A stretch of 64,000 nt of DNA, from assembly GCA_049296775.1 (NCBI GenBank), contig JBAQTB010000003.1, positions 270,068-334,067 of the forward strand, given 5' to 3'. The notes below the pieces were generated by a model. That model did not search any database, had not been told where the DNA came from, and was given only the letters and a program-made list of their open reading frames with translations. Both the position numbers and the translations under genes were made by a program. Of this stretch, positions 3,877-41,266 are shown piece by piece. Position 1 is the stretch's first letter; every line of letters begins with the position of its first letter. Source of the DNA: Patescibacteria group bacterium. Its GTDB lineage: Bacteria; Patescibacteriota; Patescibacteriia; UBA9934.

Positions 3877-4728
3877 TTACTTTCGGCGTGCTAGCCTGAG
3901 CTTAGCACTCCGCGAACGGGAATTGGCAAGGATCTCAGTCCGACTAGGAATAATCGGTTTTTTAGTCAACGTCTCAAAAGCTTCAGACTCTTTTAACCAG
4001 TGTTTTACCAATCGATCTTCCAAAGAATGGAAGGTGATCACGGCTAGAATGCCACCAGGCTTCAACACGGTCATAGCTGCCTCAAGTCCCTTCTTGACCT
4101 CACCTAGTTCGTCGTTGACCGCCAAGCGTAAAGCTTGAAAAGTACGCGTGGCTGGATGCATCTTGCCGCGCCGTGGCACGACAGTTGAAATCAACTCAGC
4201 TAACTGGTGCGTGGTCGTAATGCGCTGTGTGCGTCTGGCGTCAAAGATCGCTTTGACGATGCGGTGTGCCGCTGGTTCTTCACCCAAGCGTCGTAGAATT
4301 GTGCCCAGATCTTCCCTGGACCAACTATTGACGATCTCTTCCGCGGTCAGCTCACCCCGCGTGTCATAACGCATATCCAAAGGTCCATCATTCTGAAATG
4401 AGAAACCTCTGTCTGCCGCATCCACATGCACCGAGGAAAAACCCAGGTCCAGTAAAACTGCGTCCACCGTCACATTTAGACTAGCCATCTCGGCAAACGA
4501 GCTGTGCACGTAACGCACGCGTTCCCCAAAAACAGCTAAATTCTGCTGAGCTGTAACCAAGTTTCGATCATCCCGATCGATACCGATTAGCTGTCCATCT
4601 GGCGCAGTCGCTGCCAAAATCAAAGCGGCATGTCCACCTAATCCCAAGGTGCCGTCAATCACGGTCTGACCTGGCTTAAGCTCTAAGCCGGCGATGACTT
4701 CAGTTGCGAGTACAGGAATGTGCTGCAT
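3877..4728 (-). CDS. rsmH: 16S rRNA (cytosine1402-N4)-methyltransferase
   Basis: Classic RsmH/MraW N-terminus MQHIPVL..EV.. and SAM-binding DGTLGLGGH motif; follows mraZ. Confidence 0.9.
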   Translation of the reverse strand: MQHIPVLATEVIAGLELKPGQTVIDGTLGLGGHAALILAATAPDGQLIGIDRDDRNLVTAQQNLAVFGERVRYVHSSFAEMASLNVTVDAVLLDLGFSSVHVDAADRGFSFQNDGPLDMRYDTRGELTAEEIVNSWSREDLGTILRRLGEEPAAHRIVKAIFDARRTQRITTTHQLAELISTVVPRRGKMHPATRTFQALRLAVNDELGEVKKGLEAAMTVLKPGGILAVITFHSLEDRLVKHWLKESEAFETLTKKPIIPSRTEILANSRSRSAKLRLARRK

Positions 4729-6120: not shown

Positions 6121-6558
6121 ATGAATAAAGCATTAGAATCAACGCCGTCAGCCGTCTCACGAGCGGAAGATGACGCTAAGCAACAAAAAGAGGCCTTCCT
6201 GCAGAACCTCCATCTAATTTCCGATCAGCAACGGACTGAAGTCTTGGCGCTCATCAATCAGCGCCAACTCCGGACTCTAGCCGAACAAGAAACCGCCTTC
6301 CATGAAGTCATGAGTAAATACCAAAAAACTAAAGTCGATAGCGGCGTTGGCGCTGAGACCCTAATCAACCAATACCTACTCATGAATCAGATCGAGACGA
6401 CGGCCGCTGAACAAAAACAGTTACTCAAAAATCTCAAAGCTAGCGAGGCCCTAACGTTACCGACTCCGCAACGTGAACGCGTCGTAGCTCAAATACTCGA
6501 CACATACTTTGGCAAAATTAAAGCCGACGATCAGGATGCCGCCTTGGCCCAAGCTTAG
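6121..6558 (+). CDS. Hypothetical coiled-coil protein
   Basis: ORF track 5923..6558 overlaps the previous gene; first ATG clear of the overlap is 6121 (MNKALESTPS...). No recognisable domain. Confidence 0.4.
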   Translation: MNKALESTPSAVSRAEDDAKQQKEAFLQNLHLISDQQRTEVLALINQRQLRTLAEQETAFHEVMSKYQKTKVDSGVGAETLINQYLLMNQIETTAAEQKQLLKNLKASEALTLPTPQRERVVAQILDTYFGKIKADDQDAALAQA

Positions 6559-7988
6559 TCGCGTTTGATCCCAGACGATTTGGAACGCAAGTTCCGGTGA
6601 TAAGCACCGGCGAATCTATGCGCTTCATCACGAGCTTTTTGAAAAACTTCTTTAAAGGCACTGGTTACCCGTCTTAACTCAGCATTACTAGCGTCATACA
6701 CTAACCGATCTTGTTTACGATCAAAACCTTTAGCAATCCCAACGATGGGAATGTTAAGCTTAAGCTCACGCAAAATTTGCTGAACACGATTAACCTGACC
6801 TTCGCCACCGTCGATAACCATAATGTCCGGCAGTGGCCATGATTCAGCTGACTTTTTTACTTGGTATGCAGGCGTGACTTGGTCGGAAAGAGTCGGCAAG
6901 CGAGCTAAGCGGCGTCTCATGACCTCTTCCATGGCGCCAACGTCATTACTGCTAGTAAAGCCTTTGATTTTAAATTTGCGATACTCGGATTTGCTCGGCT
7001 TGCCGCCCTCAAACACTGACATAGCGGCTACCATGCTCGTACCAGAAATATGGGCAATGTCATACGCTTCCACCCGGCCGAGAGCGTTAATATGACCAGC
7101 TGCAGGCGCGGCCGGCACGTCATAACCAGCGCCATCGTCTTTGATTAATAAACTAATGTCTTGGATGTGCTCCAGCGCGAACACGCGATTACGCAGGACG
7201 GCCGCGGCTTCAAAAGATTTTTTCCTGGCGGCCGCGGCCATTTCGCGTTTGAGCTGACGCAGCAAAGTCGCTTTCTTGCCCTCGAAAAATAACATCAGCT
7301 TCTTGATATTGCGTCGATACGTACGTTTATCGATAGTGCCAGCACAAACTCCCGGACATTTACCAATCTGCGCATCAAAGCACATTTTTGCGTTAGAGTA
7401 CTTCTCCCCCTTTTTTAAGGGGGAGGTTTGGTCGGAGGGGGTACTAGGGGCGGGTGGGTTACAAGTCGACCACGGAATCGAACGACGAATGAGATCGAGA
7501 GCGATCTTCAAAGATCGTCCACTCAGGTACGGACCGTACACAGCCAAGAATTGGCGACGAGCCTTGAGTGACAAGCGCTTGGAAAATGGTTGAATACCGA
7601 TGCGTTCAAGATCAAGTCCACGCATCAAGACTGGCTTAGGAAAGTCCTCGTTGGTAATACAAAGATAAATGAAACTCTTGTCATCGCGACCAAGAATGTT
7701 ATACGGCGGCTTATGCAGGCGAATCTGGTTGGCCTCCAACACCAAAGCCTCAATCACGGTTGGAACTTGAGAATATTTGATCTCGACAATCTTAGACACA
7801 AGCTCCGCCGTACGCGGATGTTTGTAGGTGCCAACGAAGTACGATCCAACGCGCTTCTTCAAGCTCGTCGCCTTACCAACGTACAGCAATTTACCAGCGG
7901 CATCGTAATAAAAATACACGCCTGGCGTATCTGGAAGGTCATTGTTGTGAATTTTGATTTGGTCTGGAATCATAGTTATCATTGACAT
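6555..7988 (-). CDS. uvrC: Excinuclease ABC subunit C (short form, 477 aa) with an in-frame repeat insertion
   Basis: GIY-YIG N-terminus (GVYFYYDAAGKLLYVGKATSLKKRVGSYF), Cys motif C..C..C, UVR region and RNase H-like domain; lacks a long C-terminal HhH tail. Confidence 0.85.
   Translation of the reverse strand: MSMITMIPDQIKIHNNDLPDTPGVYFYYDAAGKLLYVGKATSLKKRVGSYFVGTYKHPRTAELVSKIVEIKYSQVPTVIEALVLEANQIRLHKPPYNILGRDDKSFIYLCITNEDFPKPVLMRGLDLERIGIQPFSKRLSLKARRQFLAVYGPYLSGRSLKIALDLIRRSIPWSTCNPPAPSTPSDQTSPLKKGEKYSNAKMCFDAQIGKCPGVCAGTIDKRTYRRNIKKLMLFFEGKKATLLRQLKREMAAAARKKSFEAAAVLRNRVFALEHIQDISLLIKDDGAGYDVPAAPAAGHINALGRVEAYDIAHISGTSMVAAMSVFEGGKPSKSEYRKFKIKGFTSSNDVGAMEEVMRRRLARLPTLSDQVTPAYQVKKSAESWPLPDIMVIDGGEGQVNRVQQILRELKLNIPIVGIAKGFDRKQDRLVYDASNAELRRVTSAFKEVFQKARDEAHRFAGAYHRNLRSKSSGIKRD
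7404..7460. repeat. G/C-heptamer palindromic element (CTCCCCC-N8-GGGGGAG ... GAGGGGG) embedded in-frame in uvrC
   Basis: Inverted heptamers at 7404-7410 / 7419-7425 plus a third copy at 7435-7441; encodes the extra segment NPPAPSTPSDQTSPLKKGEKY between conserved UvrC Cys residues. Confidence 0.6.
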
Positions 7989-8693: not shown

Positions 8694-11243
8694 CTATTTC
8701 AAGACATTACGCAAATATTTGCCCGTATGACTATTGGATTTGCGTGCAATGTCCTCTGGCGTGCCTACAGCCACAACAGTACCACCGCCATCGCCGCCTT
8801 CTGGACCCATATCGATCAACCAATCAGCGGTCTTAATCACGTCCAGGTTATGTTCAATAATAACCATACTATTCCCCTTGTCGACTAACTTATGCAGAAC
8901 CTCTAATAGCTGCTTAACATCATCAAAGTGTAAACCGGTAGTCGGTTCATCAAGCAGGTATAACGTACGTCCGGTCTGACGCTTTGATAATTCACTCGCC
9001 AACTTAATGCGCTGCGCCTCACCACCAGACAACGTGGTCGCGGATTGCCCAAGCTTAATGTACGCCAAACCGACCTCGTTCATGGCCTTCAACTTGTCAT
9101 GTACATCCGGCACATCTTTAAAGAACTCGATGCCGGTCTCCACGGTCATATCTAACACATCAGCGATATTCTTGTCCTTGAAAGTTACTTCCAAAGTCTC
9201 ACGGTTAAAGCGCTTGCCCTTACAAATTTCACAAGTTACATACACCGTTGGCAAGAAGTGCATCTCAATCTCAATCACACCGTGACCTTCGCAGTGATCG
9301 CAACGTCCACCTGGCACGTTGAAGCTAAAACGCCCTGGTTTGTAACCACGGAACCTGGCCTCTTCTGTAGCTGAAAAGAGTTCACGAATCGGCATCCAAG
9401 CGCCAGTGTAAGTGGCTGGGTTAGACCGTGAGGTTCGGCCAATGGCTCCCTGGTCAATCAAAATCGCCTTGTCTAAATACTCTAAACCAAGCACAGACTT
9501 ATGCTTACCCGGCTGCTGCTTGCCACCGTACAATTTCTTAGAGATCGCCTTGTACATGACGTCGTAGGCTAAGGTCGATTTGCCCGAACCCGACACGCCA
9601 GTCACACACACAAATTTACGCAATGGGAAATCGACGTCAACATTCTTTAAGTTATTTTCAACCGCACCACGGACCTTAATAGCACCGGCTTCTTTAACAC
9701 GACGCTCGGTGGGTACTTCGATCTTTAAATCTCCGCGCAAATACGCCGCGGTACGTGAATTTTTGTCCTTAAAAATCTCAGGTGTGGATCCCGCCGCAAC
9801 CACGTGGCCGCCGTGCACTCCAGCTCCAGGACCAATTTCTACCATGTAATCAGAACGGCGAATCGTGTCCTCATCATGCTCCACCACCAACACGGTATTC
9901 CCAAGATCACGAAGATGCTCCAAAGTTTCGATTAAACGTTCATTGTCACGCTGATGCAAGCCGATCGTTGGCTCATCGAGGACGTACATGGCGCCCACCA
10001 AGTGTGAACCGATCTGTGACGCTAAACGGATACGCTGCGCTTCACCACCAGACAACGTGCCAGCAGTTCTGTTCAAAGTTAGATAATGCAAGCCCACGTC
10101 CAACATGAAACTCAAACGGTTACTGATCTCTTTCAGCACGGAAGCCGCAATCTCTTGCTGACGTTCGTCTAATTTTAACTCTAGCAAAAACGTGATCGAC
10201 TCATCGACCGACTTATTGGTCACGCCCACAATCGATTCACCGCCAACATAAACATGCAGCGCTTCAGGCCGTAAACGCGCACCATGACACTCCAGACAAG
10301 CATCATCTGAAAATAAATTCAGCGTGCCCAACCCCGAACAAGTCTGACAGGCACCGTACGGACTATTAAACGAGAACAGTCGAGGTTCAATCTCCGGGAA
10401 AGAAAAACCGTCATCAGGACAACTAAATTTTGAAGATAGCAACCGTTCCTCCCCATCCGGAGTTACGATTAACGCCAAATCTCCACCTCTCTCAACTGCC
10501 TGTTCCAAGGCATCGGCCAAGCGTTGACGAGTGTCTTTGTGCATGTCGATCACAGCCGTGGCTGGCAAAGTATCAATCACAACCTCAATGGTGTGTTGTT
10601 TGTACCGTGACAATTCAACCTTTTCACTCAGTCTGTGGAACTTGCCGTCAATTCTCACTTTGGCAAAACCGGCGTTGTAAAGATCGTAAAGTAACTGGTA
10701 GTACTCGCCCTTTCTACCGCGAATTACGGGCGCTAGAATAACGACCTCTGCACCCGTTTTAAGTCGCGGACGGGTCGCGGATCCGTCCCTACCGCCAACA
10801 CCAGGCGCCTGCACATCGCGCTGCACGATGTCGACCATTTCATCAATAGATAACTTTTCGATCTTACGACCGCATTTAATGCAGTGCGGTTCACCAATTC
10901 TGGCGTACAGCACGCGCAAATAATCGTAAATTTCGGTAATGGTAGCAATGGTGGAACGCGGATTTCTGGAATGGGCTTTTTGATCAATGGAAATTGCCGG
11001 AGATAAACCTTCGATCTCATCCACGTCAGGCTTTTGCATGTTGCCCAGAAACTGCCTGGCATATGCCGAGAGCGATTCCACATACCGGCGCTGACCTTCT
11101 GCGAAAATGGTGTCAAAGGCTAACGAGGACTTGCCTGAGCCGGATAAGCCAGTAAAACAAATCAATTTATTCCTAGGGAGTTCTAGGGAAATATTCTTTA
11201 AATTGTGCTCTCTGGCACCTTTGATGACAATTTTATCTTGCAT
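8694..11243 (-). CDS. uvrA: Excinuclease ABC subunit A
   Basis: Two ABC ATPase modules with Walker [24 protein letters not shown] and [11 protein letters not shown], signature LSGGEAQRI twice, and zinc-finger Cys clusters; 849 aa. Confidence 0.9.
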
Positions 11244-15186: not shown

Positions 15187-15729
15187 CTATTTAGTCGCAT
15201 CTTCAATCACGTCCAGGGCACCAGCCGGAACTTTAGTGCGCCAAGCGGCATCGTGTTTCTGAATTAACGCCCGAATCTCCTCACCAACAATCCCTGGCAC
15301 ATGCACAATTTTCTTGGTCGCAATACCTTTAGCCTCAAAGATGGCACGCACTTGGTCATTACCACTCCAGACCATAGCTTCACTTGGATTACCCGCGGCA
15401 TCCAAAACATACTGGGCCCAAGCGTCATCTGATGCTGCATCTTTAACAACCGCGATAGTCACGTCCAGAATATCAACCGCTAACAAAGCCGCCCCAATCA
15501 TGTCACGGCGTTGATCTAGGCTAAATGTAACAACCCCCTCTATCTCCCCCTTATCCAGGGGGGAGGGCAAGGTGAGCGAAGGGGTCTCGCAAATCACTAC
15601 CACCACTTGATCGGACAGCTTCACCATCCCCTGGATGACCATTAAGTGACCGTTATGAAAAGGCTGAAAGCTGCCTGGAAAAATAATCGTCGCCATAGCT
15701 ATATCAAGTTTAATTATTCTGTCTGCCAA
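15187..15729 (-). CDS. Archaeal-type nicotinamide-nucleotide adenylyltransferase (cytidylyltransferase fold) with in-frame repeat insertion
   Basis: N-terminal GSFQPFHNGH matches the GRFQPFHKGH motif of archaeal NMNAT; 180 aa; contains the G/C-heptamer element. Confidence 0.7.
   Translation of the reverse strand: MADRIIKLDIAMATIIFPGSFQPFHNGHLMVIQGMVKLSDQVVVVICETPSLTLPSPLDKGEIEGVVTFSLDQRRDMIGAALLAVDILDVTIAVVKDAASDDAWAQYVLDAAGNPSEAMVWSGNDQVRAIFEAKGIATKKIVHVPGIVGEEIRALIQKHDAAWRTKVPAGALDVIEDATK
15534..15588. repeat. Second copy of G/C-heptamer palindromic element (CCCCCTC..CTCCCCC-N7-GGGGGGAG) embedded in-frame in the NMNAT gene
   Basis: Heptamers at 15534-15540, 15544-15550, 15558-15565; encodes TPSLTLPSPLDKGEIEG. 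Confidence 0.6.
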
Positions 15730-20507: not shown

Positions 20508-23500
20508 AGTTGCTGACCAAGGGGTCTGTGCCATTTTCGACCTCCTGTGAATCAATGAAGCCATCATTATCTGTGTCATTCAAATCTGGATTAGTCTCGT
20601 AGAGCAACTCCTCATCGTCAGTCAGACCATCACGATCCTGATCGTTTCTAGTTAAGCCAAAACGTGTAAAGAAGTCCCGAATCTTCAGAGGCACAGTCAC
20701 CACGAAGGCCTCGCCAAACCAATAATGACGGAACATGGTAGGTGGCACAGTCAGAATAAAGTCTTGCCAATTATCGCCTAAGATAAATCTAGCATCCTCC
20801 TCATTTGAAATGTGGTGCAGGATATTTGGCGCCTCAGATGTATATACTTCTGGCTGACTCTCGATCTGAACTAAGATAACTCCGGTCTGAGGCAAAATTG
20901 GCTCACCCATGGGATAGAGCGATAAGGTTTCATCTGGCACAACCACTAGGCTATCCATATTGGTAAACCAGGTGTAGAAAATCTCTTCATTCCAGAACGG
21001 ACGGCGTAAACCGTCTTCCAGCCAGTACACAGTGGGTAACCCTTCACCCTTAAAGACATCCCCGTTCGCCACTGGACCGGGCGGCGTAGTCTCTCCAGTG
21101 TCTTCATCATCAGTCGTGTCATCGTCAGCACTCGGCGCACAAACGCCAAGATCTACAATCACGGGCACGGTTGGATGACGATTATTCGTTGTCGAAACTA
21201 AGAGCACATACACGGTCTGTAGTCCCTCAGTAGCCGGGATATGCCACGGAATTAACATCGCTTCAATGCCCGCCTCATCGGCCAAACTAGCATCTGGCTC
21301 AAAGTCATACATCTCAGACTCAATAAACTCTGCATCATTAGCTATAAACACCCTCACCGCTCCCCTGGCTTGAATAAAGAGATCGACATTGGCGCCATCA
21401 GTACACGAATTAGTCAGCTGTCTAGCCTCCACGATCACGCCCGTCACAAATGAAGGTGATACTCCCCCTGAACCTGAGCTGTCATTATCCAAAACTTCGA
21501 CCTCAACATCAGCAATCACGAAACCATCGTAAACACCATCAAAGGAGGCGGCGGTGTGAGAAATCGTAACCGTCATTGGACTGGTTTCATCCTGAGAATC
21601 ATCCAGGGCTGTCACGGTGACAGCTTGAGGCGTATCCCAATTAGCATTAGTAAACGTAAAGACCTCAGCACTCACCTCAATTTCAGTAGCATCGTAAGTT
21701 AACGAAATCGCCACGTCAGAGGTTGGTTCACTGGTTAAAACTAAAGTGTAATCATCAGAAGTCGCTCCAAGCTCATCCACGCTGGTTGCGCCGCCAGATT
21801 CAACCACAGTAATCCCAGCTGTGTCATTATCGGTGTTAGTGACGTCAACATCAGCTGGATTTAAACCGTTATAAATCAGATCGTTAGAAACGGCTGCACC
21901 TAAAATAATCATGTACGCCACATCGCCGTCATCCAAATCATCATCCGCACCTGTAACTGTGACGGTTTGCGGAGTGCTGTAATCGCCTACGGTGAAGGTC
22001 AGAGTACCTCCACTCGTCACCGCGCCTTCACTGTCGTCATTGGTCGCCACGGCGATAGTGACGGTGTCACTAGGCTCAGTCTCTAAAACTACGGTGAAAG
22101 TGGCCGTGCCACCGGCTTCAGTGGTATTACCAGAAATCGCCGAGACCGTAATACTAGAAGTATCGTTATCAGTGACGTCAACGTCCAAAGCATCAAAGAC
22201 TAAACCGTCGTAGGTAAGGTCAGAGGATGAAAACTCGAAAGTCACCACCCCGACATGTGGGTCTGTTTCATCCAGATCATCATCAACAGCTGTGACCGTG
22301 ACTTCTTGCGGCGTATCCCAATTTTCAGTGGTAAAAGTCAATTGTGCAGTTGAGCCAGTAATATCCGCATCAAAAGCCAGGTCAACCGTGACATTATTAG
22401 ACGGCTCAGAGGTCAAGACCAATGTAAACGTATCCGAAGTTTCAGATGCCTCAGCCACTGCCGTATTCCCACCAGACTCGACCAAACTAGCACCCAATGC
22501 ATCATTGTCAGTATTCGTGACCGACACATCGTTCGGGTTAATCGCATCGTACGCTGCATCTGCAGTACTCGCGTCATCGGTTGAGGTCTGAATGGAATAA
22601 GCGATATCGCCATCATCCACGTCGTCATTAACACCGGTCACAGTCACGGTTTGTGGAGTGCTCCAATTCAGCGTGGTGAAAGTACGAGTCGCTCCGGAAG
22701 TAACCGTACCCTCCGTACTATCCGACGAAGCCGAGTCTACCCGCACGTCACCAAGCGGCTCAGACGTTAACACGACCGTAAACGTAGCCGTACCCCCGGC
22801 TTCCGTGGTATTGCCAGAAATAACTGAGACAGTCACGCCCGCGGTGTCGTCATCTGTGTTAGTGACTGACACGTCACTTGGATCATAAGCATCATAGCCC
22901 GCATCGAGAGTGCCGGTATCGTTAGTAGACACATCGATAGTATAAACAACATCACCATCATCAACATCATCATTCACGCCGGTCACAGTCACGGTTTGTG
23001 GGGTGTCCCAGTTATCCGTCGTGAAGGTCAAGGACGAACCGTTCGTAACCGTACCTTCCGTAGCATCATTAGTGGCAGAGTCGATGACGACATCATCTAA
23101 AGGTGCAAAATCCAAAACCACTGTATAAGTCGCCGTACCCCCGGCCTCTGTAGTATTGCCAGAAATAGCGGAAACGGTCACACCAATATCTGAAAACCAA
23201 CCATCAGTATTACTACCTTCCTCGGAATTGGCTGGGTTAAGCGGCACCGTCACCGCAGAAGAGTTGTCGATGGCGGTATTGTCTGAAACGGTCAAATAGT
23301 CACCGGTAAAGGTGGAGGCACCAGTAAAATCAAAGGCGGCCTCGCTACCGTCCATGGTAGCGATAATGATGATCTTATCGCTACTATCAAGACCGTTTAA
23401 TAGCAAAGAGCTACCGATAGTCTGTATCGATCCAGAAGCCAGAGTCAAAGTATTACTGGCGGCATCGTTACTCGTCTGTTCATAAATAAAGTCATACCAA

Positions 23501-26448
23501 GTAGTATCACCAGTCAAACTATGATCTGCATCAGCATCAAAAGTGACCGTTCCAGCCTGTGCTGCAAACGTGCCGGCATTAGTCCAGTCTCCCCCAATGG
23601 TCAAAGCGTAATCCTGGCCAGACACCATATTCAAAGTACCGGACGTCAACGTCAAATCAGCATTAACATCTAAAGCAGTAGCTGGTTGAAAAGTGTCAGT
23701 CGCACCGTCAGTGCTATTAATCACGAGGTTAGAGTAGGTATCCTTCAATGTAGTCAAAGTATAAGTATCTATAGCAGTATCGCCGTCTCCTACATACGTC
23801 ACTATAGAGCCGGAGTTGAGAGTTGGATAAGTTGCATTCAAAGTAATCGTTTCTGCGCCTTGAAGCTGAAAATTACCTCCATCTTCAACGATAAACGTAC
23901 CGCTCAGTCCGTTCACCGTTAACGCTTGTCCGCTTAAGTAAAATTTGCCTTCCTCAATAATCAAATCCTGGTTATCTTCATCGACCACAAGAGCTGACAG
24001 CAAATTCACCTGCCCCCCATCTTTGTTAACATATATATCTGCGGTAAATTTATCTGTGGCGCCGGTTAGATCAAAAGACTGGGTAGCCGAACCGCTGAAT
24101 CTCAACGGCACAGTGCTACCATCAAAACCAGCTTGAACGGTCACGTTAGCCTGAGGCTCGATACTGCCTGTAATAGTCGACAGCGTGCCGTTGGTTAAAA
24201 TTAAATTACCAGTCAACGTTAAAATGTCTCCTTCACCAATAGAGGTTCCAGAGATTCTGTTGATGGTTAATTGATTAAAAGTCTGCGTACCATTGAAATT
24301 CCAAGTTCCGCTAGTGACCGTGGCTGTAATCAGCGTAGGCGCAATAAAAGTACCTCCGGTTATGTCGAAATCTCCACTCACATTCCAGGCACTTTGGGCA
24401 CTGGCGTCATAAGAGCCCGCCGCCTGCATCCAATCATCAACTGTGAGCGTAAAATCACTGGGATTATTCAAGGGAATTGCCCCAGAAAAATCAGATGTAG
24501 CCTCAATGGCGTTCAGAGTCGCAGCTGCTCCAATGTCAATATCATCATTTGCATCCGCCGCACTATTCAGACGAATTCTCGGAGCAATACCCCCAGTAAT
24601 AGTGTAGGTTTGTGCCACGGAATCATCACCAAAATCAATATAGGCCGTACCCCCATCAAAACCTGCGCCCTGAGAAATATTAGCTCTGGCATCTACCTGC
24701 GAAGTACTCCCGGTGATTGAGCCGTTAGTTAGGGTCAATAAACCCGTAACCACAAAAGTATCGCCCGCGATCATTGAAACGGAACTAGCACGATTAATTG
24801 TTAATTGATTAAAAGTTAAACTCGTAACCACATTCCAAGAGCCACTCGTACCAGTAGCAGTTACCAAAACTGGGGGCACAAAGGTGTCCACCGACAAAGT
24901 CAGATCACCACTCAAGTTCCAAGCACTTTGGGCACTGGCGTCATAAGTACCGACGGCCTGCGTCCAGGCATCGATAACTAGAGTAAAATCGCTCGGGTTA
25001 TTTAAGGGGATAGCCCCAGAGAAACCCGCATTAGTTTGAATAGCGTTCAAAATGGCCGCCGCTTCAATATTAATGTCATCACTAGCGTCAGCGGCACTAT
25101 CCAAACGAATTCTAGGCGCAGTACCACCGCTCACGGTATACGTCTGCACCAAGCTATCGTTACCAAAATCAATATACCCGTTACCACCGTCAAAACCAGC
25201 GCCCTGGTTGACATCCCCTTGGACGATGATCTCACCAGTCGATCCAGATATTGAGCCGTTAGTCAAAGTCAACGTACCGTCGACCGCTAAAGTGTCATTC
25301 GTTCCAAAAACTAAGGAGCTCGTACGATTAATCGTGAAATCTGCAAAGGTCTGGCTGGTATTGACATCATACGTACCCGTCGTTCCGGAAGCTGTCACCA
25401 AGGCAGGAGCCGTCAATGTACCACCAGATATGGTCAATGATACGATATTCCAAGCAGTTTGCGCGCTGGCGTCATACGTACCAGCCGCCTGCGACCACAA
25501 GGTAAAAGTTGGCACAAAATCACCAGCGTTGCTGAATGGAATAGTTCCAGAAAAACCGGAGGTAACAGTTAAGCTCGTAAATGTGGTGGCGGCGCTATGT
25601 AGAACGGTGTCGCTAGCATCCGCAGCGCTATCTAAACGAATGTTAGGAGCGATACCTCCAGCAGCGGTATAGGTCTGACCCACACCGTCATTACCAAAAT
25701 CAATGATCGCCGAACCACCATCAAAGCCAGACGTTTGGCTAATATCCCCATTAGCCGTAATCGTTCCCGTATTTACCACACCGTTTGTCAGCGTCAGCGT
25801 GCCATCTACCACCAACGTATCTCCTGACGTAATCGTCATCGTGGAAGTACGATTGATAATTAAGTTATTAAAAGTTTCTGTCACGCTCACGTTCCACGTG
25901 GCGGTGGAGCCATCCGCAGTCACCGTACCAGTAGACGGAGCAAAACTTCCTGAACTAACCGTAAAGGCCCCCGCCACTGCCATATTGCCGCTAGTCGACG
26001 TAAACGTTCCGCCCGAAACCGTAAACGCATCATTAAAATCTAAAGCGCCATCACTCCCAGTAAACGTACCGGCGGAAATATCAAAGTCAGACGTGCCAAC
26101 AGTCAGCGTTGCGGCCGCCGCCTGCGTAACCACGCCGGAGTAGCCCGTGTTAATGTCTACGCCACCCACACTGATTGCACCATCAAGAGTGGCAGCCTTG
26201 GTGCTAGTACCGTCAAACGTAGCTATGTCACCAACACCTGGCTCTACATTACTACTCCAGTTAGCATCACACGACCATTTATTGCCGTCACCCACTCCAC
26301 CGCCACATGTACCATCTGCGCCACCGCCGTCCCAAGTAATGACCGCCGCCTGAACTGAACTAGAACTTAACGCAAAAACAACCAAAAGACTGGCAAGACT
26401 AACGCATATGACGCTACTCATCCTCAAAAACCAATAGACACGCTTCAT
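20506..26448 (-). CDS. Giant secreted surface/adhesin-like protein (1980 aa)
   Basis: N-terminal signal peptide; four ~145-aa beta-helix-like tandem repeats; about five Calx-beta/cadherin-like repeats (VTVTGVNDDVDDGD); acidic linker; conserved C-terminal domain also found in the 50512 gene; terminal DxDxDG thrombospondin-type-3-like Ca-binding repeats. Confidence 0.8.
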   Translation of the reverse strand: MKRVYWFLRMSSVICVSLASLLVVFALSSSSVQAAVITWDGGGADGTCGGGVGDGNKWSCDANWSSNVEPGVGDIATFDGTSTKAATLDGAISVGGVDINTGYSGVVTQAAAATLTVGTSDFDISAGTFTGSDGALDFNDAFTVSGGTFTSTSGNMAVAGAFTVSSGSFAPSTGTVTADGSTATWNVSVTETFNNLIINRTSTMTITSGDTLVVDGTLTLTNGVVNTGTITANGDISQTSGFDGGSAIIDFGNDGVGQTYTAAGGIAPNIRLDSAADASDTVLHSAATTFTSLTVTSGFSGTIPFSNAGDFVPTFTLWSQAAGTYDASAQTAWNIVSLTISGGTLTAPALVTASGTTGTYDVNTSQTFADFTINRTSSLVFGTNDTLAVDGTLTLTNGSISGSTGEIIVQGDVNQGAGFDGGNGYIDFGNDSLVQTYTVSGGTAPRIRLDSAADASDDINIEAAAILNAIQTNAGFSGAIPLNNPSDFTLVIDAWTQAVGTYDASAQSAWNLSGDLTLSVDTFVPPVLVTATGTSGSWNVVTSLTFNQLTINRASSVSMIAGDTFVVTGLLTLTNGSITGSTSQVDARANISQGAGFDGGTAYIDFGDDSVAQTYTITGGIAPRIRLNSAADANDDIDIGAAATLNAIEATSDFSGAIPLNNPSDFTLTVDDWMQAAGSYDASAQSAWNVSGDFDITGGTFIAPTLITATVTSGTWNFNGTQTFNQLTINRISGTSIGEGDILTLTGNLILTNGTLSTITGSIEPQANVTVQAGFDGSTVPLRFSGSATQSFDLTGATDKFTADIYVNKDGGQVNLLSALVVDEDNQDLIIEEGKFYLSGQALTVNGLSGTFIVEDGGNFQLQGAETITLNATYPTLNSGSIVTYVGDGDTAIDTYTLTTLKDTYSNLVINSTDGATDTFQPATALDVNADLTLTSGTLNMVSGQDYALTIGGDWTNAGTFAAQAGTVTFDADADHSLTGDTTWYDFIYEQTSNDAASNTLTLASGSIQTIGSSLLLNGLDSSDKIIIIATMDGSEAAFDFTGASTFTGDYLTVSDNTAIDNSSAVTVPLNPANSEEGSNTDGWFSDIGVTVSAISGNTTEAGGTATYTVVLDFAPLDDVVIDSATNDATEGTVTNGSSLTFTTDNWDTPQTVTVTGVNDDVDDGDVVYTIDVSTNDTGTLDAGYDAYDPSDVSVTNTDDDTAGVTVSVISGNTTEAGGTATFTVVLTSEPLGDVRVDSASSDSTEGTVTSGATRTFTTLNWSTPQTVTVTGVNDDVDDGDIAYSIQTSTDDASTADAAYDAINPNDVSVTNTDNDALGASLVESGGNTAVAEASETSDTFTLVLTSEPSNNVTVDLAFDADITGSTAQLTFTTENWDTPQEVTVTAVDDDLDETDPHVGVVTFEFSSSDLTYDGLVFDALDVDVTDNDTSSITVSAISGNTTEAGGTATFTVVLETEPSDTVTIAVATNDDSEGAVTSGGTLTFTVGDYSTPQTVTVTGADDDLDDGDVAYMIILGAAVSNDLIYNGLNPADVDVTNTDNDTAGITVVESGGATSVDELGATSDDYTLVLTSEPTSDVAISLTYDATEIEVSAEVFTFTNANWDTPQAVTVTALDDSQDETSPMTVTISHTAASFDGVYDGFVIADVEVEVLDNDSSGSGGVSPSFVTGVIVEARQLTNSCTDGANVDLFIQARGAVRVFIANDAEFIESEMYDFEPDASLADEAGIEAMLIPWHIPATEGLQTVYVLLVSTTNNRHPTVPVIVDLGVCAPSADDDTTDDEDTGETTPPGPVANGDVFKGEGLPTVYWLEDGLRRPFWNEEIFYTWFTNMDSLVVVPDETLSLYPMGEPILPQTGVILVQIESQPEVYTSEAPNILHHISNEEDARFILGDNWQDFILTVPPTMFRHYWFGEAFVVTVPLKIRDFFTRFGLTRNDQDRDGLTDDEELLYETNPDLNDTDNDGFIDSQEVENGTDPLVSN
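24080..25810. repeat. Tandem ~435-bp coding repeats (x4) inside the giant adhesin gene (approximate bounds)
   Basis: Protein-level repeats ..GFDGG..YIDFG.D...QTYT..GG.APRIRL.SAADA.DDI.I..AA.LNAI....FSGAIPLNNPSDFTL..D.W.QA.G.YDASAQSAWN.. recur four times. Confidence 0.55.
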
Positions 26449-33313: not shown

Positions 33314-33388
33314 AGGGGAATAGTGAAATGGCTATCACAAAGGTCTCCAAAACCTTTATTCAGGGTTCGAATCCCTGTTCCCCTGCCA
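33314..33388 (+). tRNA. tRNA-Trp (anticodon CCA)
   Basis: Hand-folded: acceptor AGGGGAA/TTCCCCT, D-stem GTGA/TCAC, anticodon stem AAGGT/ACCTT with loop CTCCAAA, T-arm CAGGG-TTCGAAT-CCCTG, discriminator G, encoded CCA. Confidence 0.85.
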
Positions 33389-33440
33389 GGCAACTGCCGC
33401 GGTGTCTAGATTTTCACCCGACACCGCGGCAACTGCCTGG
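33386..33440 (+). terminator. Perfect 21-bp hairpin starting in the CCA of tRNA-Trp
   Basis: CCAGGCAACTGCCGCGGTGTC-(13 nt loop)-GACACCGCGGCAACTGCCTGG. Confidence 0.55.
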
Positions 33441-33475
33441 CATGCCACCAACCTTTGCGGTAAAATGAGACAGAT

Positions 33476-35340: not shown

Positions 35341-35424
35341 TGTTTTGCAGTATCGCTATAATGAGAGTGAAACACGCTTGCATATATCAAGGTTCCAAGT
35401 ACTTCTACCATTCCCTGTCACTAG

Positions 35425-35453
35425 AACATCAGCCAAAACGGCTGGCGTTTTTG
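35425..35453 (+). repeat. Member of conserved hairpin family (AACATCAGCC-AAAAC-GGCTGGCGTTTTT)
   Basis: Shares the GGCTGG(T/C)GTTTT arm with at least seven other intergenic hairpins. Confidence 0.5.
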
Positions 35454-35485
35454 GTTGGTACATGCCTATACTCAAGATAATTTTT

Positions 35486-36118
35486 ATGAAAATAAGAACA
35501 GCCTTCGTAATCACCTTTATTACTGTCATTATTATATACGCAGCCGTTTGGATTCCCTGGCTCGTGCTTCGCGAAACCAGCGACATAACAAGCTCGCTTG
35601 AAGATCTTGAAAAACACGATGTCGCTGTCATCTTCGGCGGCTTACACGAAAGTGGCAAAGATCTTACCGAGACTAACCGGGAACGGCTCTTGGCAGGCGC
35701 GGCTCTGATTAAAGAAGAAAAAGTTACTAGCCTGATTGTTTCAAATACTTCTGAAGCAACTAAGGCTATGAAGACCTTTCTCCTCGAACAAGGGATTTCT
35801 GAAAACCAAATCGAACTCGACACCACCGCCGTAGTCACGGCAGATAGCTGCGTCGCCGAAAGGAATGCTCATCCCGAAGGCAGATCTGTCATTTTTGTTT
35901 CACATGGATATCATCTGCCCCGGATCCTTTATTCATGTCATCGCCTAAGTGTGTCCGGAGTCGGCGTACCGGCAGAAGAAATTGCGACTATCCAACGACA
36001 AGAATTGTCGCAGTTCGATACCCTGCGAATACGTTTTGGAAGGAATCAACGTGAAGCTCTCCTTACTCTATTGAACATTTTGGGCATATACGGTCCAACA
36101 CTGGAAAAAGAGTTCTAA
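35486..36118 (+). CDS. DUF218 (SanA/YdcF-like) membrane-anchored protein
   Basis: N-terminal TM helix; DVAVIFGG...RL..A..L profile of DUF218; start at ATG 35486 because the ORF-track extension contains the hairpin. Confidence 0.55.
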   Translation: MKIRTAFVITFITVIIIYAAVWIPWLVLRETSDITSSLEDLEKHDVAVIFGGLHESGKDLTETNRERLLAGAALIKEEKVTSLIVSNTSEATKAMKTFLLEQGISENQIELDTTAVVTADSCVAERNAHPEGRSVIFVSHGYHLPRILYSCHRLSVSGVGVPAEEIATIQRQELSQFDTLRIRFGRNQREALLTLLNILGIYGPTLEKEF

Positions 36119-36464
36119 CTCCGTCCGCTAGCCCATGCCAAAAATACTTCGCTTATTTTAGCGGAGTATTTTCATAGGACAAACGCGAGTTAGAACTTTT
36201 TGAAATATTACCTAAAAAAGAATGTCCGGGGTGCAAGATAGCAACCCCGGACAACGCGCTCGTTAACAACTTGTTAGACGAGCGGAAACGGCGGTCCCGC
36301 ACAGCGTTCCCATCCGCCCCCTGTCACTACCATAACCTAATAATAATGTCAATATATCATGCGAGCACTTTTCTAAGCGCCTCTACCATGCCCTGCCAAA
36401 AACCCATCAACTGTAGGTTGGCGATTTTCTGATACACTACGATCAATATAATTTTACAAACTTT

Positions 36465-37043
36465 ATGAAGACCTCCGCAACACCCTTCAGATCGGGCGCG
36501 ACTCAATCAGTGCAGAAGATAATAATTTTAATGAGCGCATTTTGCTTAGGATTAATTGTTCCTTTGATAGCCATGTATTTTGGAATGTCCTTGACCCCCT
36601 CGGCGACGGATGCGTTCGTTTCACCAGAAGGCGCCCGTGTAGAGCTCGTCAAGAAAAATAACAAAGATTGGTTTGGTGACGCATATTATTTCTACCAAGA
36701 TTCTGAGAGAGAAAATCAGTTACTCATAGCCCCTTCGTTGACTATGGAAAACCAGGGAGTGACAAATTCTTTCGATTCCGTTTTCTATACCGATGCGATC
36801 TTATCCCCGGATGGTCGCTGGGTGGCACTGCCCGCAACCTGCTGGGAGGAAACGTGTTTACGGATTTATGATGTAAAACGTCAATCACTTCACTGGGCTG
36901 ATCGCGCAGCCATGAACGTATCCTGGTCAACGGATGGCCGTCTGCACGCTGAGGGTGATTGTGCCGCTCCGAAGGTAACCGCATGCGGACCATTTGAATC
37001 AACCTCGGCTAATGAACCTTGGAGGATGCAGTCTGTTAAATAG
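36465..37043 (+). CDS. Hypothetical secreted/membrane-anchored protein
   Basis: 192 aa with N-terminal hydrophobic anchor; no domain recognised. Confidence 0.45.
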   Translation: MKTSATPFRSGATQSVQKIIILMSAFCLGLIVPLIAMYFGMSLTPSATDAFVSPEGARVELVKKNNKDWFGDAYYFYQDSERENQLLIAPSLTMENQGVTNSFDSVFYTDAILSPDGRWVALPATCWEETCLRIYDVKRQSLHWADRAAMNVSWSTDGRLHAEGDCAAPKVTACGPFESTSANEPWRMQSVK

Positions 37044-37090
37044 ATGCTCTAAATAGTCGAGTTCTAACCTCGCTCACTAGCCCCTGCCAG

Positions 37091-37120
37091 AAATCACCAG
37101 CCTTTACGGGCTGGTGTTTT
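37091..37120 (+). terminator. Hairpin family member (AAATCACCAGCC-TTTAC-GGGCTGGTGTTTT)
   Basis: Perfect stem plus T-run after the 36465 gene. Confidence 0.55.
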
Positions 37121-37126
37121 CTGTTA

Positions 37127-37171
37127 TTGACATCCCCTTCCCTGCATGATTAACTTAAGATAATCTTAAGT
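37127..37171 (+). promoter_or_regulatory. Promoter TTGACA-17-TTAACT overlapping a 19-nt perfect palindrome ACTTAAGATAATCTTAAGT (putative TA operator)
   Basis: Palindrome at 37153-37171 sits between the -10 and the antitoxin start codon. Confidence 0.45.
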
Positions 37172-37177
37172 TAATCT

Positions 37178-37399
37178 ATGAAAAATCTGATCACCTTAAA
37201 GGAATTTAGGCAGGACGTGGCGAAATACGCCGAACGAGTAGCTAAAGGCGAGTCCTTAATCATCACCAAACGATCTCGGCCGCTATTTCGAGTCGGCCCG
37301 GTAGAAGAGGAAGGCTGGGAAACACTCATAGATTTCACAAAATTCCGCAAGGGTGGCATCCCGGCGAGCGAGATTCTCAAGATTCTGAAATCAGTTTAG
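37178..37399 (+). CDS. Type II antitoxin, Phd/YefM-like
   Basis: 73 aa; N-terminus LITLKEFRQDVAKYAERVAKGESLIITKRSRP matches the Phd/YefM consensus; 2 nt before the toxin gene. Confidence 0.65.
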   Translation: MKNLITLKEFRQDVAKYAERVAKGESLIITKRSRPLFRVGPVEEEGWETLIDFTKFRKGGIPASEILKILKSV

Positions 37400-37401
37400 G
37401 T

Positions 37402-37650
37402 ATGGTTGATCGCATTCGTAAAATCTTGCGACAATTACTACCCAAAGACTTGAAGCGGTTACAAGAAGTCGTTCAAAAAGTTCACGACAACGATGTGATT
37501 GGTCTCGATGTAAAAAAACTTGAAGGACGAGATGATGTCTATCGTGTCAGAAAGGGAGACTTCAGAATTATCTTTCAACGTGTTCCGGGTAAGGAAAACT
37601 TGATTATCGCTATCGAGCGTCGTTCAGATACAACATACAACGAGCTCTAA
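37402..37650 (+). CDS. Type II toxin, RelE/ParE family
   Basis: 82 aa; VYRVRKGDFRIIFQRVPGKENLIIAIERR matches the RelE/ParE core (YRiRvGdYRiiy...i.HRkd.Y). Confidence 0.7.
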   Translation: MVDRIRKILRQLLPKDLKRLQEVVQKVHDNDVIGLDVKKLEGRDDVYRVRKGDFRIIFQRVPGKENLIIAIERRSDTTYNEL

Positions 37651-37700
37651 CGTCGTTCACTAAGGCCTGCCCCGTCATTCGCAACCGACGTGTCTTGCCA

Positions 37701-37733
37701 CAAACCCATCAGCCCAAACGGCTGGTGTTTTTG
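37701..37733 (+). terminator. Hairpin family member (CAAACCCATCAGCC-CAAAC-GGCTGGTGTTTTTG)
   Basis: Follows the TA operon and precedes the QueC-like gene. Confidence 0.55.
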
Positions 37734-37777
37734 TTTGAGGCGTGATAATTTCGGCGTGCGCAAAAAGGAGGAGTTCA

Positions 37778-38388: not shown

Positions 38389-38400
38389 GATCGTCACGAG

Positions 38401-38452: not shown

Positions 38453-38458
38453 ACTTCA

Positions 38459-41248: not shown

Positions 41249-41266
41249 AATGGTGGAATTAAACTT

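What the first reader, a model, noticed from the sequence alone, without database searches (positions are those of the whole stretch)
7404..7460. G/C-heptamer palindromic element inserted in-frame inside uvrC
A short structured DNA element, not ordinary coding sequence, sits inside the uvrC reading frame.
- The inverted heptamers CTCCCCC (7404-7410) and GGGGGAG (7419-7425) flank an 8-nt TTTTTTAA loop, with a third copy GAGGGGG at 7435-7441 and further G-runs.
- Read in frame, it adds the segment NPPAPSTPSDQTSPLKKGEKY between the conserved Cys of the UvrC GIY-YIG-distal Cys motif (STC | SNAKMCF...GKCPGVC), where canonical UvrC proteins have no insert.
- A second copy sits in-frame in an unrelated gene (see the next finding).
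- This behaves like Rickettsia palindromic elements (RPEs), which are known to insert in-frame into ORFs and be tolerated as extra surface loops.
Basis: partly seen in the sequence, partly recalled or inferred. Interest (0 to 1): 0.6.

Follow-up and report, generated by a model that had tools for sequence, protein, structure and literature searches.

The report
In-frame hairpin repeat inside uvrC
A short hairpin-forming repeat has been inserted, without breaking the reading frame, into a flexible loop of the DNA-repair gene uvrC of a Patescibacteria (CPR) bacterium; it belongs to a repeat family found in many bacterial phyla that often flanks genes for a small endonuclease of unknown role (DUF559).

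Summary
CTCCCCCTT (7404-7412) and AAGGGGGAG (7417-7425) form a 9-bp hairpin inside uvrC (6555-7988, minus strand). GAGGGGG at 7435-7441 is a third unit, a mirror image of the hairpin arm. A second copy lies at 15531-15567 in a nucleotidyltransferase gene.

Close UvrC orthologues have an 11-residue loop (NPPSVTGTTKP); this one has 26. Related elements (consensus ACCCCCTCTAACTCCCCCTT-N3-5-AAGGGGGAG, read as TPSNSPLxKGE) sit at this site and at two other UvrC sites in scattered relatives. A tree implies at least three independent gains. AlphaFold models the loop as disordered.

The element behaves like Rickettsia RPEs and the intragenic REPs already reported in uvrABC genes, but it carries neither the RPE/REP sequence tags nor an associated RAYT transposase.

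The same module occurs in contigs of 28-70% GC, and related versions occur in Moraxella, cyanobacteria, Deinococcus and E. coli. It is mostly intergenic, in alternating-orientation clusters. It repeatedly forms the inverted flanks of DUF559 (Vsr-like) endonuclease genes, and one such cassette sits at different loci in two syntenic CPR genomes.

Best reading: a solo copy of a REP-like repeat, translated and tolerated. Spread by a DUF559 nuclease is inferred, not shown. No DUF559 gene was found in this window.

The parts
6555..7988 (-). Host gene uvrC (477-aa ORF; the public protein P0001 starts 5 codons later). It is the short CPR form.
   Evidence: ORF list. Pfam GIY-YIG, UVR and UvrC_RNaseH_dom. 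100% identical to a Patescibacteria MAG protein.
7383..7460 (-). Enlarged loop between Cys176 and Cys203: NPPAPSTPSDQTSPLKKGEKYSNAKM, 26 codons against 11 (NPPSVTGTTKP) in insert-free orthologues.
   Evidence: Alignment of 40 orthologues. Loop lengths in 120 homologues. AlphaFold gives pLDDT below 50 and coil for residues 174-217.
7402..7443 (-). The repeat module ('H') itself, sense to uvrC: ACCCCCTCC-GACCAAAC-CTCCCCCTT-AAAA-AAGGGGGAG.
   Evidence: nhmmer hit 7443..7402, E = 1.9e-6, with a profile built from copies in relatives and metagenomes. DNA comparison with relatives.
7404..7425 (.). Hairpin core: arms at 7404-7412 and 7417-7425 (9 bp), loop at 7413-7416.
   Evidence: Sequence. Folding. 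Chance expectation 0.
7435..7441 (-). Unit U (CCCCCTC on the sense strand), the mirror image of the pyrimidine arm CTCCCCC. It sets the polarity of the module.
   Evidence: Sequence. The mirror relation is the commonest same-composition arrangement for five arm types.
7437..7458 (+). G-run tract GGGGGTACTAGGGGCGGGTGGG on the antisense strand. It fits the G3+N1-7 x4 quadruplex pattern and partly overlaps unit U.
   Evidence: Read directly from the sequence. Structure not tested.
15531..15567 (+). Second copy of the module: AACCCCCTCTAT-CTCCCCCTT-ATCC-AGGGGGGAG. Hairpin at 15544-15565, unit U at 15534-15540. It is antisense to its host gene and is read as ..SPLDKGEIEGV..
   Evidence: Pattern search. 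nhmmer E = 2.4e-8 on the plus strand.
15187..15729 (-). Host gene of the second copy: a cytidylyltransferase-like nucleotidyltransferase. It is 11 codons longer at this point than three orthologues (ICDGKKNGDEDPF becomes ICETPSLTLPSPLDKGEIEGVVTF).
   Evidence: Pfam CTP_transf_like. Alignment A3. DNA comparison.

Best explanation
The feature is a solo copy of a small REP-like dispersed repeat. Its module ('H') is a pyrimidine unit U, 2-4 nt, the mirror-image pyrimidine arm M, a 3-5 nt loop, and the complementary purine arm. The canonical form is 33 nt.

The copy was installed in a flexible loop of UvrC. It survives because it keeps the reading frame and has no stop codon. It is most likely translated as about 15 extra disordered residues and is neutral or nearly so for UvrC.

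Elsewhere the same module is mostly intergenic and sits in clusters of alternating orientation. It also forms the inverted flanks of small cassettes that encode a DUF559 (Vsr-like PD-(D/E)XK) endonuclease. That is the architecture REPs have around their RAYT transposase.

I infer that copies spread by a nuclease-initiated copy or repair process, with a DUF559 enzyme acting in trans. In gene-dense CPR genomes the only surviving landing sites are tolerant protein loops.

Shown: the in-frame, lineage-specific insertion; recurrence at several sites; the cross-phylum family; the physical association with DUF559; the mobility of one DUF559 cassette.

Inferred: translation of the insert; DUF559 as the mobilising enzyme; triplex-type folding implied by the mirror symmetry.
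For: Insertion:
- Orthologues at 75-86% identity (alignment A1) have NPPSVTGTTKP at this point. The window has 26 residues.
- In a neighbour-joining tree, the insert-bearing sequences (window; P0004; P0002 with P0006) each nest among insert-free sisters, which implies at least 3 gains.
- The DNA of relatives shows ACCCCCTCTA[AG]CTCCCCCTT-loop-AAGGGGGAG at the Cys loop (L081), in the linker before WPLPD (L088) and after FRIK (L089).
- The sister genomes L086 and L087 carry one subfamily variant at different UvrC sites.
- About 17 of 120 UvrC homologues carry recognisable copies. More copies lie in uvrA of L081 and at the uvrC stop codon of L088.
- The insert region has pLDDT below 50 and no secondary structure.

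Family:
- 24 of 35 viral contigs selected only for the hairpin also carry unit U.
- A metagenome scan hit its 120-stretch limit, in contigs of 28-66% GC. About 10-20% of the copies lie inside long ORFs and the rest lie in short non-coding spacers.
- The two-hairpin composite form of the module, used as a blastn query, matched Moraxella and Pseudanabaena plasmids at about 80% identity.
- Pfam-confirmed in-frame copies occur in FtsK (twice, at the same site), Wzy_C, an aminotransferase, a ComM-like protein, an Exo_endo_phos protein and a ComEA-like protein.

DUF559 link:
- DUF559 is the most recurrent protein family near the metagenome copies, in 5 loci against at most 4 for any other. Pfam E-values are 1e-29 to 1e-35.
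- A DUF559 gene is present in 11 of the 155 motif-selected loci (two look like duplicates), and in none of the 89 control loci or the window.
- The usual arrangement is rc(H)-gene-H, directly abutting the ORF.
- From the gene side, many of 120 DUF559 homologues have H-encoded termini such as ..PPDKGGKGGY.. and ..NPPNPLYQGG.
- Similar flanks appear in Photobacterium, Pseudanabaena, Deinococcus, Synechocystis, PCC 7002 and E. coli ycjD.
- In two syntenic Patescibacteria MAGs, the cassette lies between a ferredoxin (Fer4) gene and uvrC in L253. It is absent from that site in L254, where a related DUF559 gene (both 65-68% identical to the query) sits elsewhere with near-identical upstream flanks.
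- Solo copies in those two genomes carry the same sequence variant as their cassette flanks.
Against: - No DUF559 gene was found in the 64-kb window or in nine syntenic loci of close relatives. The link for this particular genome is therefore indirect.
- The insertions are not clean. Five to ten flanking codons are also replaced, and no target-site duplication or exact boundary could be defined.
- The enrichment statistic is modest: 11 of 155 loci (about 10 distinct) against 0 of 89, roughly p = 0.01.
- E. coli ycjD is single-copy, and it matched at essentially one place per genome in the 3378 of 5426 genomes that carry it, so it does not look mobile there.
- A DUF559 gene might instead home into pre-existing repeat clusters rather than mobilise them.
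- Translation of the insert is not shown.
- A pyrimidine-motif triplex with five consecutive protonated C+.G-C triplets is unfavourable at neutral pH (general knowledge).
Confidence: 0.6

Rival explanations
1. This is a classical REP/REPIN-type element, moved as single-stranded DNA by a RAYT (Y1 HUH) transposase encoded elsewhere in the genome. The association with DUF559 is incidental.
For: Its size, hairpin, alternating-orientation dimers and clusters, and occasional intragenic copies in repair genes all match the published description of REPs (PMC3733652; clusters seen).
Against: There is no GTAG or CGTC tag. No transposase family recurs near the copies; the most recurrent neighbour is DUF559. 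According to the same paper, CGTC REPs also lack a known transposase.
Confidence: 0.15
2. DUF559 genes are homing-endonuclease-like parasites that insert into pre-existing H clusters. H itself spreads by some other route, such as host recombination or repair, or replication template switching at hairpins.
For: Gene-less forms, rc(H)-short spacer-H, exist. The Vsr/DUF559 clade includes a group I intron homing endonuclease (PMC3424549). The replaced flanking codons look like repair or conversion tracts.
Against: Within a genome, the solo-copy variant matches the cassette-flank variant. That fits co-evolution of enzyme and substrate at least as well.
Confidence: 0.2
3. The hairpin has been taken over for a function within uvrC, for example ribosome pausing at the Shine-Dalgarno-like AAGGGGGAG, control of mRNA stability, or a triplex or quadruplex structure that the repair machinery senses.
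For: UvrC is hit repeatedly at three sites in many lineages. uvrA and other DNA-handling genes are also hit. A published survey likewise found intragenic REPs concentrated in UvrABCD and RecBCD genes and doubted that this is chance. The antisense strand has a G-quadruplex pattern.
Against: Copies occur in both orientations, at different sites, and in unrelated genes including an aminotransferase and an O-antigen ligase. Most orthologues do without the insert. The sites are disordered loops, which fits simple tolerance.
Confidence: 0.1
4. This is an ordinary, fast-evolving protein loop or an assembly artefact, not an inserted element.
For: The Cys loop and the linker vary in length across UvrC homologues.
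Against: The same 33-nt DNA motif occurs at different sites and in different genes and assemblies. The palindrome is far beyond chance. The reading frames are intact.
Confidence: 0.02

Closest known systems
Intragenic REPs in repair and replication genes (GTAG/CGTC REP superfamilies; Di Nocera et al. 2013, PMC3733652)
   Same: Short GC-rich hairpin repeats, mostly extragenic and in inverted dimers. Some copies lie in frame inside uvrA, uvrB, polA, recBCD and similar genes and encode 20-30 extra residues in loops or linkers.
   Different: This element has no GTAG or CGTC tag. It has a poly-C/poly-G stem and an extra mirror-image unit. No RAYT was seen; the recurrent neighbour is DUF559. The host phylum, Patescibacteria, was not covered in that survey.
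Rickettsia palindromic elements (RPE-1 to RPE-8)
   Same: Palindromic repeats that are tolerated in frame inside essential genes. Per PMC3733652, RPE-1-decorated proteins are expressed in vivo.
   Different: RPE-1 is a longer palindromic insertion (about 100-150 bp from my own knowledge), and RPE-4/-6 are CGTC-tagged REPs (PMC3733652). This element is 33-42 nt, has an unrelated sequence, sits in a different phylum and belongs to a cross-phylum family.
REPtrons / REPINs (a RAYT gene flanked by inverted REPs)
   Same: A nuclease gene is bracketed by inverted copies of the very repeat that is dispersed around the genome. The repeat variant matches between cassette and solo copies.
   Different: The enzyme here is a PD-(D/E)XK Vsr-like DUF559 protein, not a Y1 HUH transposase. 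No activity on the repeat has been demonstrated.
E. coli BoxC repeats (name recalled from memory; listed at 22-32 copies in PMC2267715)
   Same: A GC-rich, complex palindromic extragenic repeat of unknown function. The fabI-ycjD spacer next to E. coli's DUF559 gene ycjD holds hairpins of the same C-run/G-run design. One of them is repeated a median of 16, and up to 29, times per genome.
   Different: No direct sequence homology to the CPR module was established. That the spacer repeat is BoxC rests on my memory and on the copy number. ycjD is single-copy and matched at essentially one place per genome.
Vsr-like homing endonuclease I-Bth0305I (same PD-(D/E)XK clade as DUF559, per PMC3424549)
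   Same: A small nuclease of the same clade with a selfish, mobile lifestyle. This fits the presence/absence of the DUF559 cassette seen between L253 and L254.
   Different: That enzyme is encoded in a group I intron. The cassettes here are free-standing and bracketed by hairpin repeats.
Very small dispersed repeats of cyanobacteria (SDR families, 21-27 nt; recalled from memory, Elhai et al. 2008)
   Same: Mobile-looking hairpin elements under 35 nt that nest within one another.
   Different: Those were described as confined to one cyanobacterial subgroup, with no associated nuclease. Any relationship to this module was not tested.

Membership tests
Rickettsia palindromic elements (RPE) | Inserted in frame in ORFs without disrupting them | tested here: met
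   The uvrC and nucleotidyltransferase ORFs are intact. The inserts are absent from orthologues.
Rickettsia palindromic elements (RPE) | Palindromic and predicted to fold as a stable hairpin | tested here: met
   9-bp stem, -10 kcal/mol as DNA, z = -3.4.
Rickettsia palindromic elements (RPE) | RPE sequence families: a longer palindromic RPE-1, or short CGTC-tagged RPE-4/-6 (PMC3733652); described in Rickettsia | tested here: not met
   The element is 33-42 nt, has no CGTC tag and sits in a Patescibacteria host. No direct alignment to RPE sequences was possible.
REP / REPIN (RAYT-mobilised) | 20-40 nt imperfect palindrome present in multiple dispersed copies | tested here: met
   Two copies in the window and several in relatives. 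More than 120 stretches in metagenomes.
REP / REPIN (RAYT-mobilised) | Unpaired terminal GTAG (or CGTC) tag | tested here: not met
   The aligned copies start A-CCCCCTCT and end GGGGGAG-RAY.
REP / REPIN (RAYT-mobilised) | Mainly extragenic, in inverted dimers or clusters | tested here: inconclusive
   True for the metagenome, Moraxella and cyanobacterial copies. In the window both copies are single and intragenic.
REP / REPIN (RAYT-mobilised) | A Y1 (RAYT) transposase gene flanked by the repeat | tested here: not met
   All-against-all clustering of ORFs near 120 metagenome loci finds DUF559 as the most recurrent family (5 loci) and no transposase family among the recurrent ones. Whole genomes were not available.
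MITE | Terminal inverted repeats plus a target-site duplication, 50-500 bp, derived from an IS | tested here: not met
   No duplication at filled versus empty sites, and the element is under 45 nt.
DUF559-flanking repeat (proposed here; no published definition) | The same module forms inverted flanks of a DUF559 gene in the same genome | not testable with these tools
   Shown for other genomes. No DUF559 gene in the 64-kb window, and the rest of the source genome could not be fetched.
Intramolecular triplex / H-DNA-type motif | Homopurine-homopyrimidine mirror repeat with a third strand of the correct polarity | tested here: met
   Unit U is the reverse of arm M. This is the commonest same-composition arrangement for the arms CTCCCCC, CCTCCCC, TCTCCCC, CCCCTCC and TCCCCCC.
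Intramolecular triplex / H-DNA-type motif | Actual triplex formation in DNA or RNA | not testable with these tools
   The available folding tools model only Watson-Crick and wobble pairs.

The most novel reading that the evidence does not exclude
The poly-C/poly-G hairpin modules and DUF559 genes together form a widespread, undescribed REPtron-like system. A Vsr-like PD-(D/E)XK nuclease, instead of a Y1 transposase, would recognise and propagate a mirror-symmetric, triplex-capable hairpin repeat. The system would span Patescibacteria, cyanobacteria, Deinococcus and Proteobacteria, possibly including the orphan E. coli pair BoxC and YcjD. In gene-dense CPR genomes it would repeatedly remodel loops of DNA-repair and DNA-handling proteins.
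Probability: 0.3. Interest if true: 0.8.

Novelty: new variant of a known kind. Interest (0 to 1): 0.6.

Why it matters
In-frame palindromic repeats in repair genes have already been described for Rickettsia, Opitutus and others. The bare finding therefore adds a new host phylum (CPR) and a new repeat family to a known phenomenon.

Three things go beyond that. First, one module is recognisable from 28% to 70% GC and, in related forms, across phyla. Second, its mirror symmetry cannot arise by any duplication mechanism, so it points to a structural constraint of the triplex type. Third, it is physically tied to DUF559, a very common 'endonuclease domain-containing protein' with no known role.

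If the link is functional, it would give DUF559 (and E. coli YcjD) a testable substrate. It would name a candidate mobilising enzyme for a class of REP-like repeats that lack a RAYT. It would also explain many odd N- and C-terminal extensions and loop insertions in annotated proteins, and some assembly breaks in metagenomes.

Tried and rejected
- Rfam at gathering thresholds found only tRNAs, both in the window and in nine motif-bearing viral contigs.
- The exact-protein look-up of the source contig failed, so no genome-wide census of the source MAG was possible.
It served only as a control set.
- A search for target-site duplications and clean boundaries by comparing filled and empty sites failed. 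Flanking codons are replaced and no duplication is present.
- A 3' extension shared by the L081 and L089 copies (GCGMAGCRATATGYTA) is absent from the linker copies. I did not accept it as part of the element.
- The hairpin is not terminator-like; no T-run follows it and the scan did not list it.
- My first reading, that both window copies have the same orientation relative to their genes, was wrong. The hairpin is palindromic, and unit U shows that the second copy is antisense.
- The scan of viral contigs for DUF559 genes returned only 6 loci.
- Literature searches by sequence, by peptide, by 'DUF559', and by palindromic elements or REPs with Patescibacteria/CPR found no description of this family.
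- Enrichment in DNA-metabolism genes could not be tested rigorously with the sample available.
Full report
**Observation**

On the plus strand, CTCCCCC lies at 7404-7410 and GGGGGAG at 7419-7425, around TTTTTTAA, and GAGGGGG lies at 7435-7441. The true stem is 9 bp (CTCCCCCTT/AAGGGGGAG) with a 4-nt loop. It folds at -10 kcal/mol as DNA, z = -3.4, with 0 of 200 shuffles folding as well. The 91-nt sense-strand RNA gives z = -2.7. The pattern CTCCCCC-N4-12-GGGGGAG occurs twice in 64 kb, at 7404 and 15544, against 0.00 expected. The scan for terminator-like sites does not list it.

**Host gene**

The element lies in a 477-codon ORF on the minus strand (6555-7988). Pfam finds GIY-YIG, UVR and UvrC RNase H-like domains. 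The protein is 100% identical to a protein of a Patescibacteria MAG. The insert sits between Cys176 and Cys203.

**It is an insertion**

In an alignment of 40 orthologues, most of the close ones (75-86% identity) have the loop NPPSVTGTTKP, 11 residues. The window has NPPAPSTPSDQTSPLKKGEKYSNAKM, 26 residues.

A few relatives have inserts at the same place:
- P0004: NPPTPSNSPLTKGERAKQYAKP
- P0006: NPPTLPNPPLLKGGKQVVLGRP
- P0002: a degraded copy

On a neighbour-joining tree built from the gap-free columns, these are not one clade. The window pairs with insert-free P0021. P0004 pairs with insert-free P0012. P0002 and P0006 are sisters but carry different variants. At least three gains are needed. 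Precise losses that restore SVTGTT are implausible.

Other relatives carry the same peptide signature at other UvrC sites. In the linker before WPLPD these are P0003, P0030, P0036, P0049, P0055 and P0090. After FRIK it is P0025. In all, about 17 of 120 homologues carry a recognisable copy.

**The element at DNA level**

I fetched the contigs of six relatives. They show one nucleotide motif at these different sites: ACCCCCTCTA[AG]CTCCCCCTT, a 3-5 nt loop, then AAGGGGGAG. That is 33 nt in canonical form, read as T-P-S-N-S-P-L-x-K-G-E.

The sister genomes L086 and L087 share a distinct variant (CTCCCT(C)TTATTCCTCCTCTT...). It lies in the Cys loop in one and in the linker in the other.

A profile built from these copies finds the window's uvrC copy on the minus strand (7443-7402, E = 1.9e-6). 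It finds the second window copy on the plus strand (15531-15567, E = 2.4e-8). It also finds a copy in uvrA of L081 (TPSNSLSGRGR, in a variable UvrA loop) and one at the uvrC stop codon of L088. No further copies appear in the window.

**The second copy**

It lies in a cytidylyltransferase-like gene (15187-15729, minus strand). Three orthologues are 11 codons shorter there. Because the hairpin is palindromic, it looked co-oriented with the uvrC copy. Unit U shows that it is antisense to its gene, where it reads ..SPLDKGEIEGV... In-gene copies in other contigs show the same antisense signature..KGELEGV...

**Boundaries are not clean**

The net gain is 11 codons at three sites: the L081 Cys loop, the L089 FRIK site and the window nucleotidyltransferase. 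It is 15 codons in the window's uvrC. In each case 5-10 neighbouring codons are also replaced, and there is no target-site duplication. This looks more like a repair or conversion patch than cut-and-paste transposition. That reading is an inference.

**Tolerance**

AlphaFold2 with the 40-sequence alignment gives pLDDT below 50 and no secondary structure for residues 174-217, which include the insert, and for 368-380, the linker hot-spot. The catalytic domains are confident.

**The family is not CPR-specific**

- I scanned IMG/VR for the hairpin alone (CTCCCCCTT-N3-7-AAGGGGGAG) and got 35 stretches in contigs of 30-70% GC. In 24 of them a CCCCCTC unit lies just 5' of the hairpin, or GAGGGGG lies just 3' on the other strand.
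- Most copies lie in short non-coding spacers. About 10-20% lie inside long ORFs.
- Pfam-confirmed in-gene copies occur in FtsK (two contigs, same site), a Wzy_C protein, an aminotransferase, a ComM/Mg-chelatase-like ATPase, an Exo_endo_phos protein and a ComEA-like protein.
- The modules are commonly arranged in alternating orientation, as H-spacer-rc(H) and rc(H)-short spacer-H, like BIMEs or REPINs.
- That two-hairpin composite, used as a blastn query, matches Moraxella osloensis plasmids (in one, in the spacer between the nitrate reductase alpha-subunit gene and narH) and a Pseudanabaena plasmid at about 80% identity.
- Rfam has no matching family.

**Mirror symmetry**

Unit U is the reverse, not the reverse complement, of the pyrimidine arm M. 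I compared all same-composition permutations in the 20 nt upstream of each hairpin. The mirror permutation is the commonest for the arms CTCCCCC, CCTCCCC, TCTCCCC, CCCCTCC and TCCCCCC. The direct repeat is rare. For example, for TCTCCCC the counts are 14 mirror against 0 direct in 32 hairpins, and for CCTCCCC they are 23 against 3 in 71.

No replication process produces mirror repeats. The arrangement Py(third strand)-turn-Py-loop-Pu is exactly that of an intramolecular Py.Pu-Py triplex. On the complementary strand it is that of a Pu.Pu-Py triplex. This comes from established triplex pairing rules. Formation of a triplex was not tested.

**Link to DUF559**

- All-against-all clustering of ORFs in the metagenome loci gives one family in five loci, the most of any; no other exceeds four. 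It is DUF559, the Vsr-like PD-(D/E)XK family (Pfam E = 1e-29 to 1e-35).
- tblastn finds it in 11 of the 155 motif-selected loci (1.08 Mb). It finds none in the 89 control loci (1.35 Mb) or in the window.
- The genes are directly bracketed as rc(H)-gene-H. The G-rich unit sits where a ribosome-binding site would be.
- From the gene side, many of 120 DUF559 homologues have termini encoded by such modules, for example ..SYPPDKGGKGGY....SPLxKGxxG....NPPNPLYQGG and ..HPNPPLSGRG. Many sit on contigs under 2 kb.
- In named organisms, the flanks of DUF559 genes show the same design: Photobacterium, Pseudanabaena, Deinococcus (here H-gene-rc(H), inserted between paaD and paaZ), Synechocystis, Picosynechococcus PCC 7002 and E. 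coli ycjD.
- Two Patescibacteria MAGs share the gene order HisKA-IVP-response regulator-ferredoxin (Fer4)-uvrC. L253 has the cassette between the ferredoxin gene and uvrC. L254 lacks it there and carries a related DUF559 gene elsewhere, with near-identical upstream flanks (both genes are 65-68% identical to the search query).
- Solo copies in these genomes use the same variant as the cassette flanks. One of them lies in frame in the uvrC linker of L254.
- In E. coli, a hairpin repeat in the fabI-ycjD spacer occurs a median of 16, and up to 29, times per genome. This fits the BoxC family, listed at 22-32 copies in PMC2267715. The name is from my memory.

**Comparison with the literature**

Di Nocera et al. 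[quoted passage not shown] They equated Rickettsia RPE-4/-6 with CGTC REPs. The present case has the same behaviour. It fails the sequence criteria of those superfamilies (tags and stem rules) and lacks a RAYT. PMC3424549 places DUF559 with Vsr and a group I intron homing endonuclease. I found no paper linking DUF559 to flanking repeats, and none describing such elements in CPR. The library searched is incomplete.

**Verdict**

The RPE-like interpretation is right about behaviour and wrong about family. The most likely mechanism is passive tolerance of a solo REP-like module in a disordered loop. Propagation of the family probably depends on DUF559 nucleases. My rough confidence is 0.9 for the insertion, about 0.75 for the family-DUF559 association, and about 0.35 for DUF559 as the mobilising enzyme.

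Noticed in passing
L253 10001-10435 and L254 3614-3976 (two Patescibacteria MAGs): A DUF559 cassette bracketed by hairpin modules lies immediately upstream of uvrC in L253. It is absent from the syntenic site in L254, where a related cassette sits elsewhere beside a nest of interrupted modules (L254 3980-4230).
   Followed up: partly
L261 (E. coli K-12 NC_000913.3) 4040-4408, the fabI-ycjD spacer: E. coli's DUF559 gene ycjD is followed by three C-run/G-run hairpins. One of them is a dispersed repeat with a median of 16 and up to 29 places per genome, probably the BoxC family (name from memory). A BoxC-YcjD connection appears untested.
   Followed up: partly
L132 about 3400 and L214 (two low-GC metagenome contigs): FtsK carries an in-frame module (TPSNSPLSGGE / TPSSSPLSGGE) at the same position in both contigs, just before the LPYIVIIIDELAD motif. 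L214 has a second module next to it.
   Followed up: partly
window about 10760-10810 (uvrA, 8694-11243 minus strand): UvrA has a variable G-rich loop ([19 protein letters not shown]). The relative L081 has a degraded hairpin module (TPSNSLSGRGR) at the same place, so this loop may be the relic of an older insertion.
   Followed up: partly
L187 883-1962: Five modules sit in a head-to-tail array with a 103-nt period, ending at a DUF559 gene. The inter-module segments are similar to each other, so this is a tandem repeat and not a CRISPR-like array.
   Followed up: no
L129, L139, L143, L149, L154, L160, L168, L183, L189, L194: A conserved element of about 100 nt recurs across contigs, with up to three copies in L154. 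It consists of a module, then AACACGCT.CATTGT.ACATTGAAGCG..TTCTTGCGTTCGTCT, then a second hairpin CTCCCCCTGTG.AAGGGGG. It has no Rfam match among the loci scanned. It may be a larger structured repeat or a non-coding RNA.
   Followed up: no
window 35418-42042 and 37091-37120, 52144-52173: A family of hairpins, (A)AAACACCAGCC-loop-GGCTGGTGTTTTT, follows short genes. They have the look of intrinsic terminators and are unrelated to the poly-C/G module.
   Followed up: no
window 21584-23031 and 24370-25734: There are long in-gene tandem repeats, with periods of about 685 nt and 533 nt at 62-78% identity, on the minus-strand coding side. They are presumably repeated domains of large surface proteins.
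   Followed up: no
window 33384-33442: A 23-nt inverted repeat (91% complementary, 13-nt spacer) starts at the last base of the tRNA at 33314-33385.
   Followed up: no
table (DUF559 homologues): A large share of DUF559 homologues sit on contigs shorter than 2 kb. This suggests that the cassettes and their flanking repeats break metagenome assemblies.
   Followed up: no
L258 and L259 (Synechocystis sp. B12 and Picosynechococcus PCC 7002 plasmids): In both cyanobacterial plasmids the DUF559 gene lies next to a DUF1156 gene. In Synechocystis B12 a DUF1156 gene lies just upstream, and it may have been split by the cassette.
   Followed up: no
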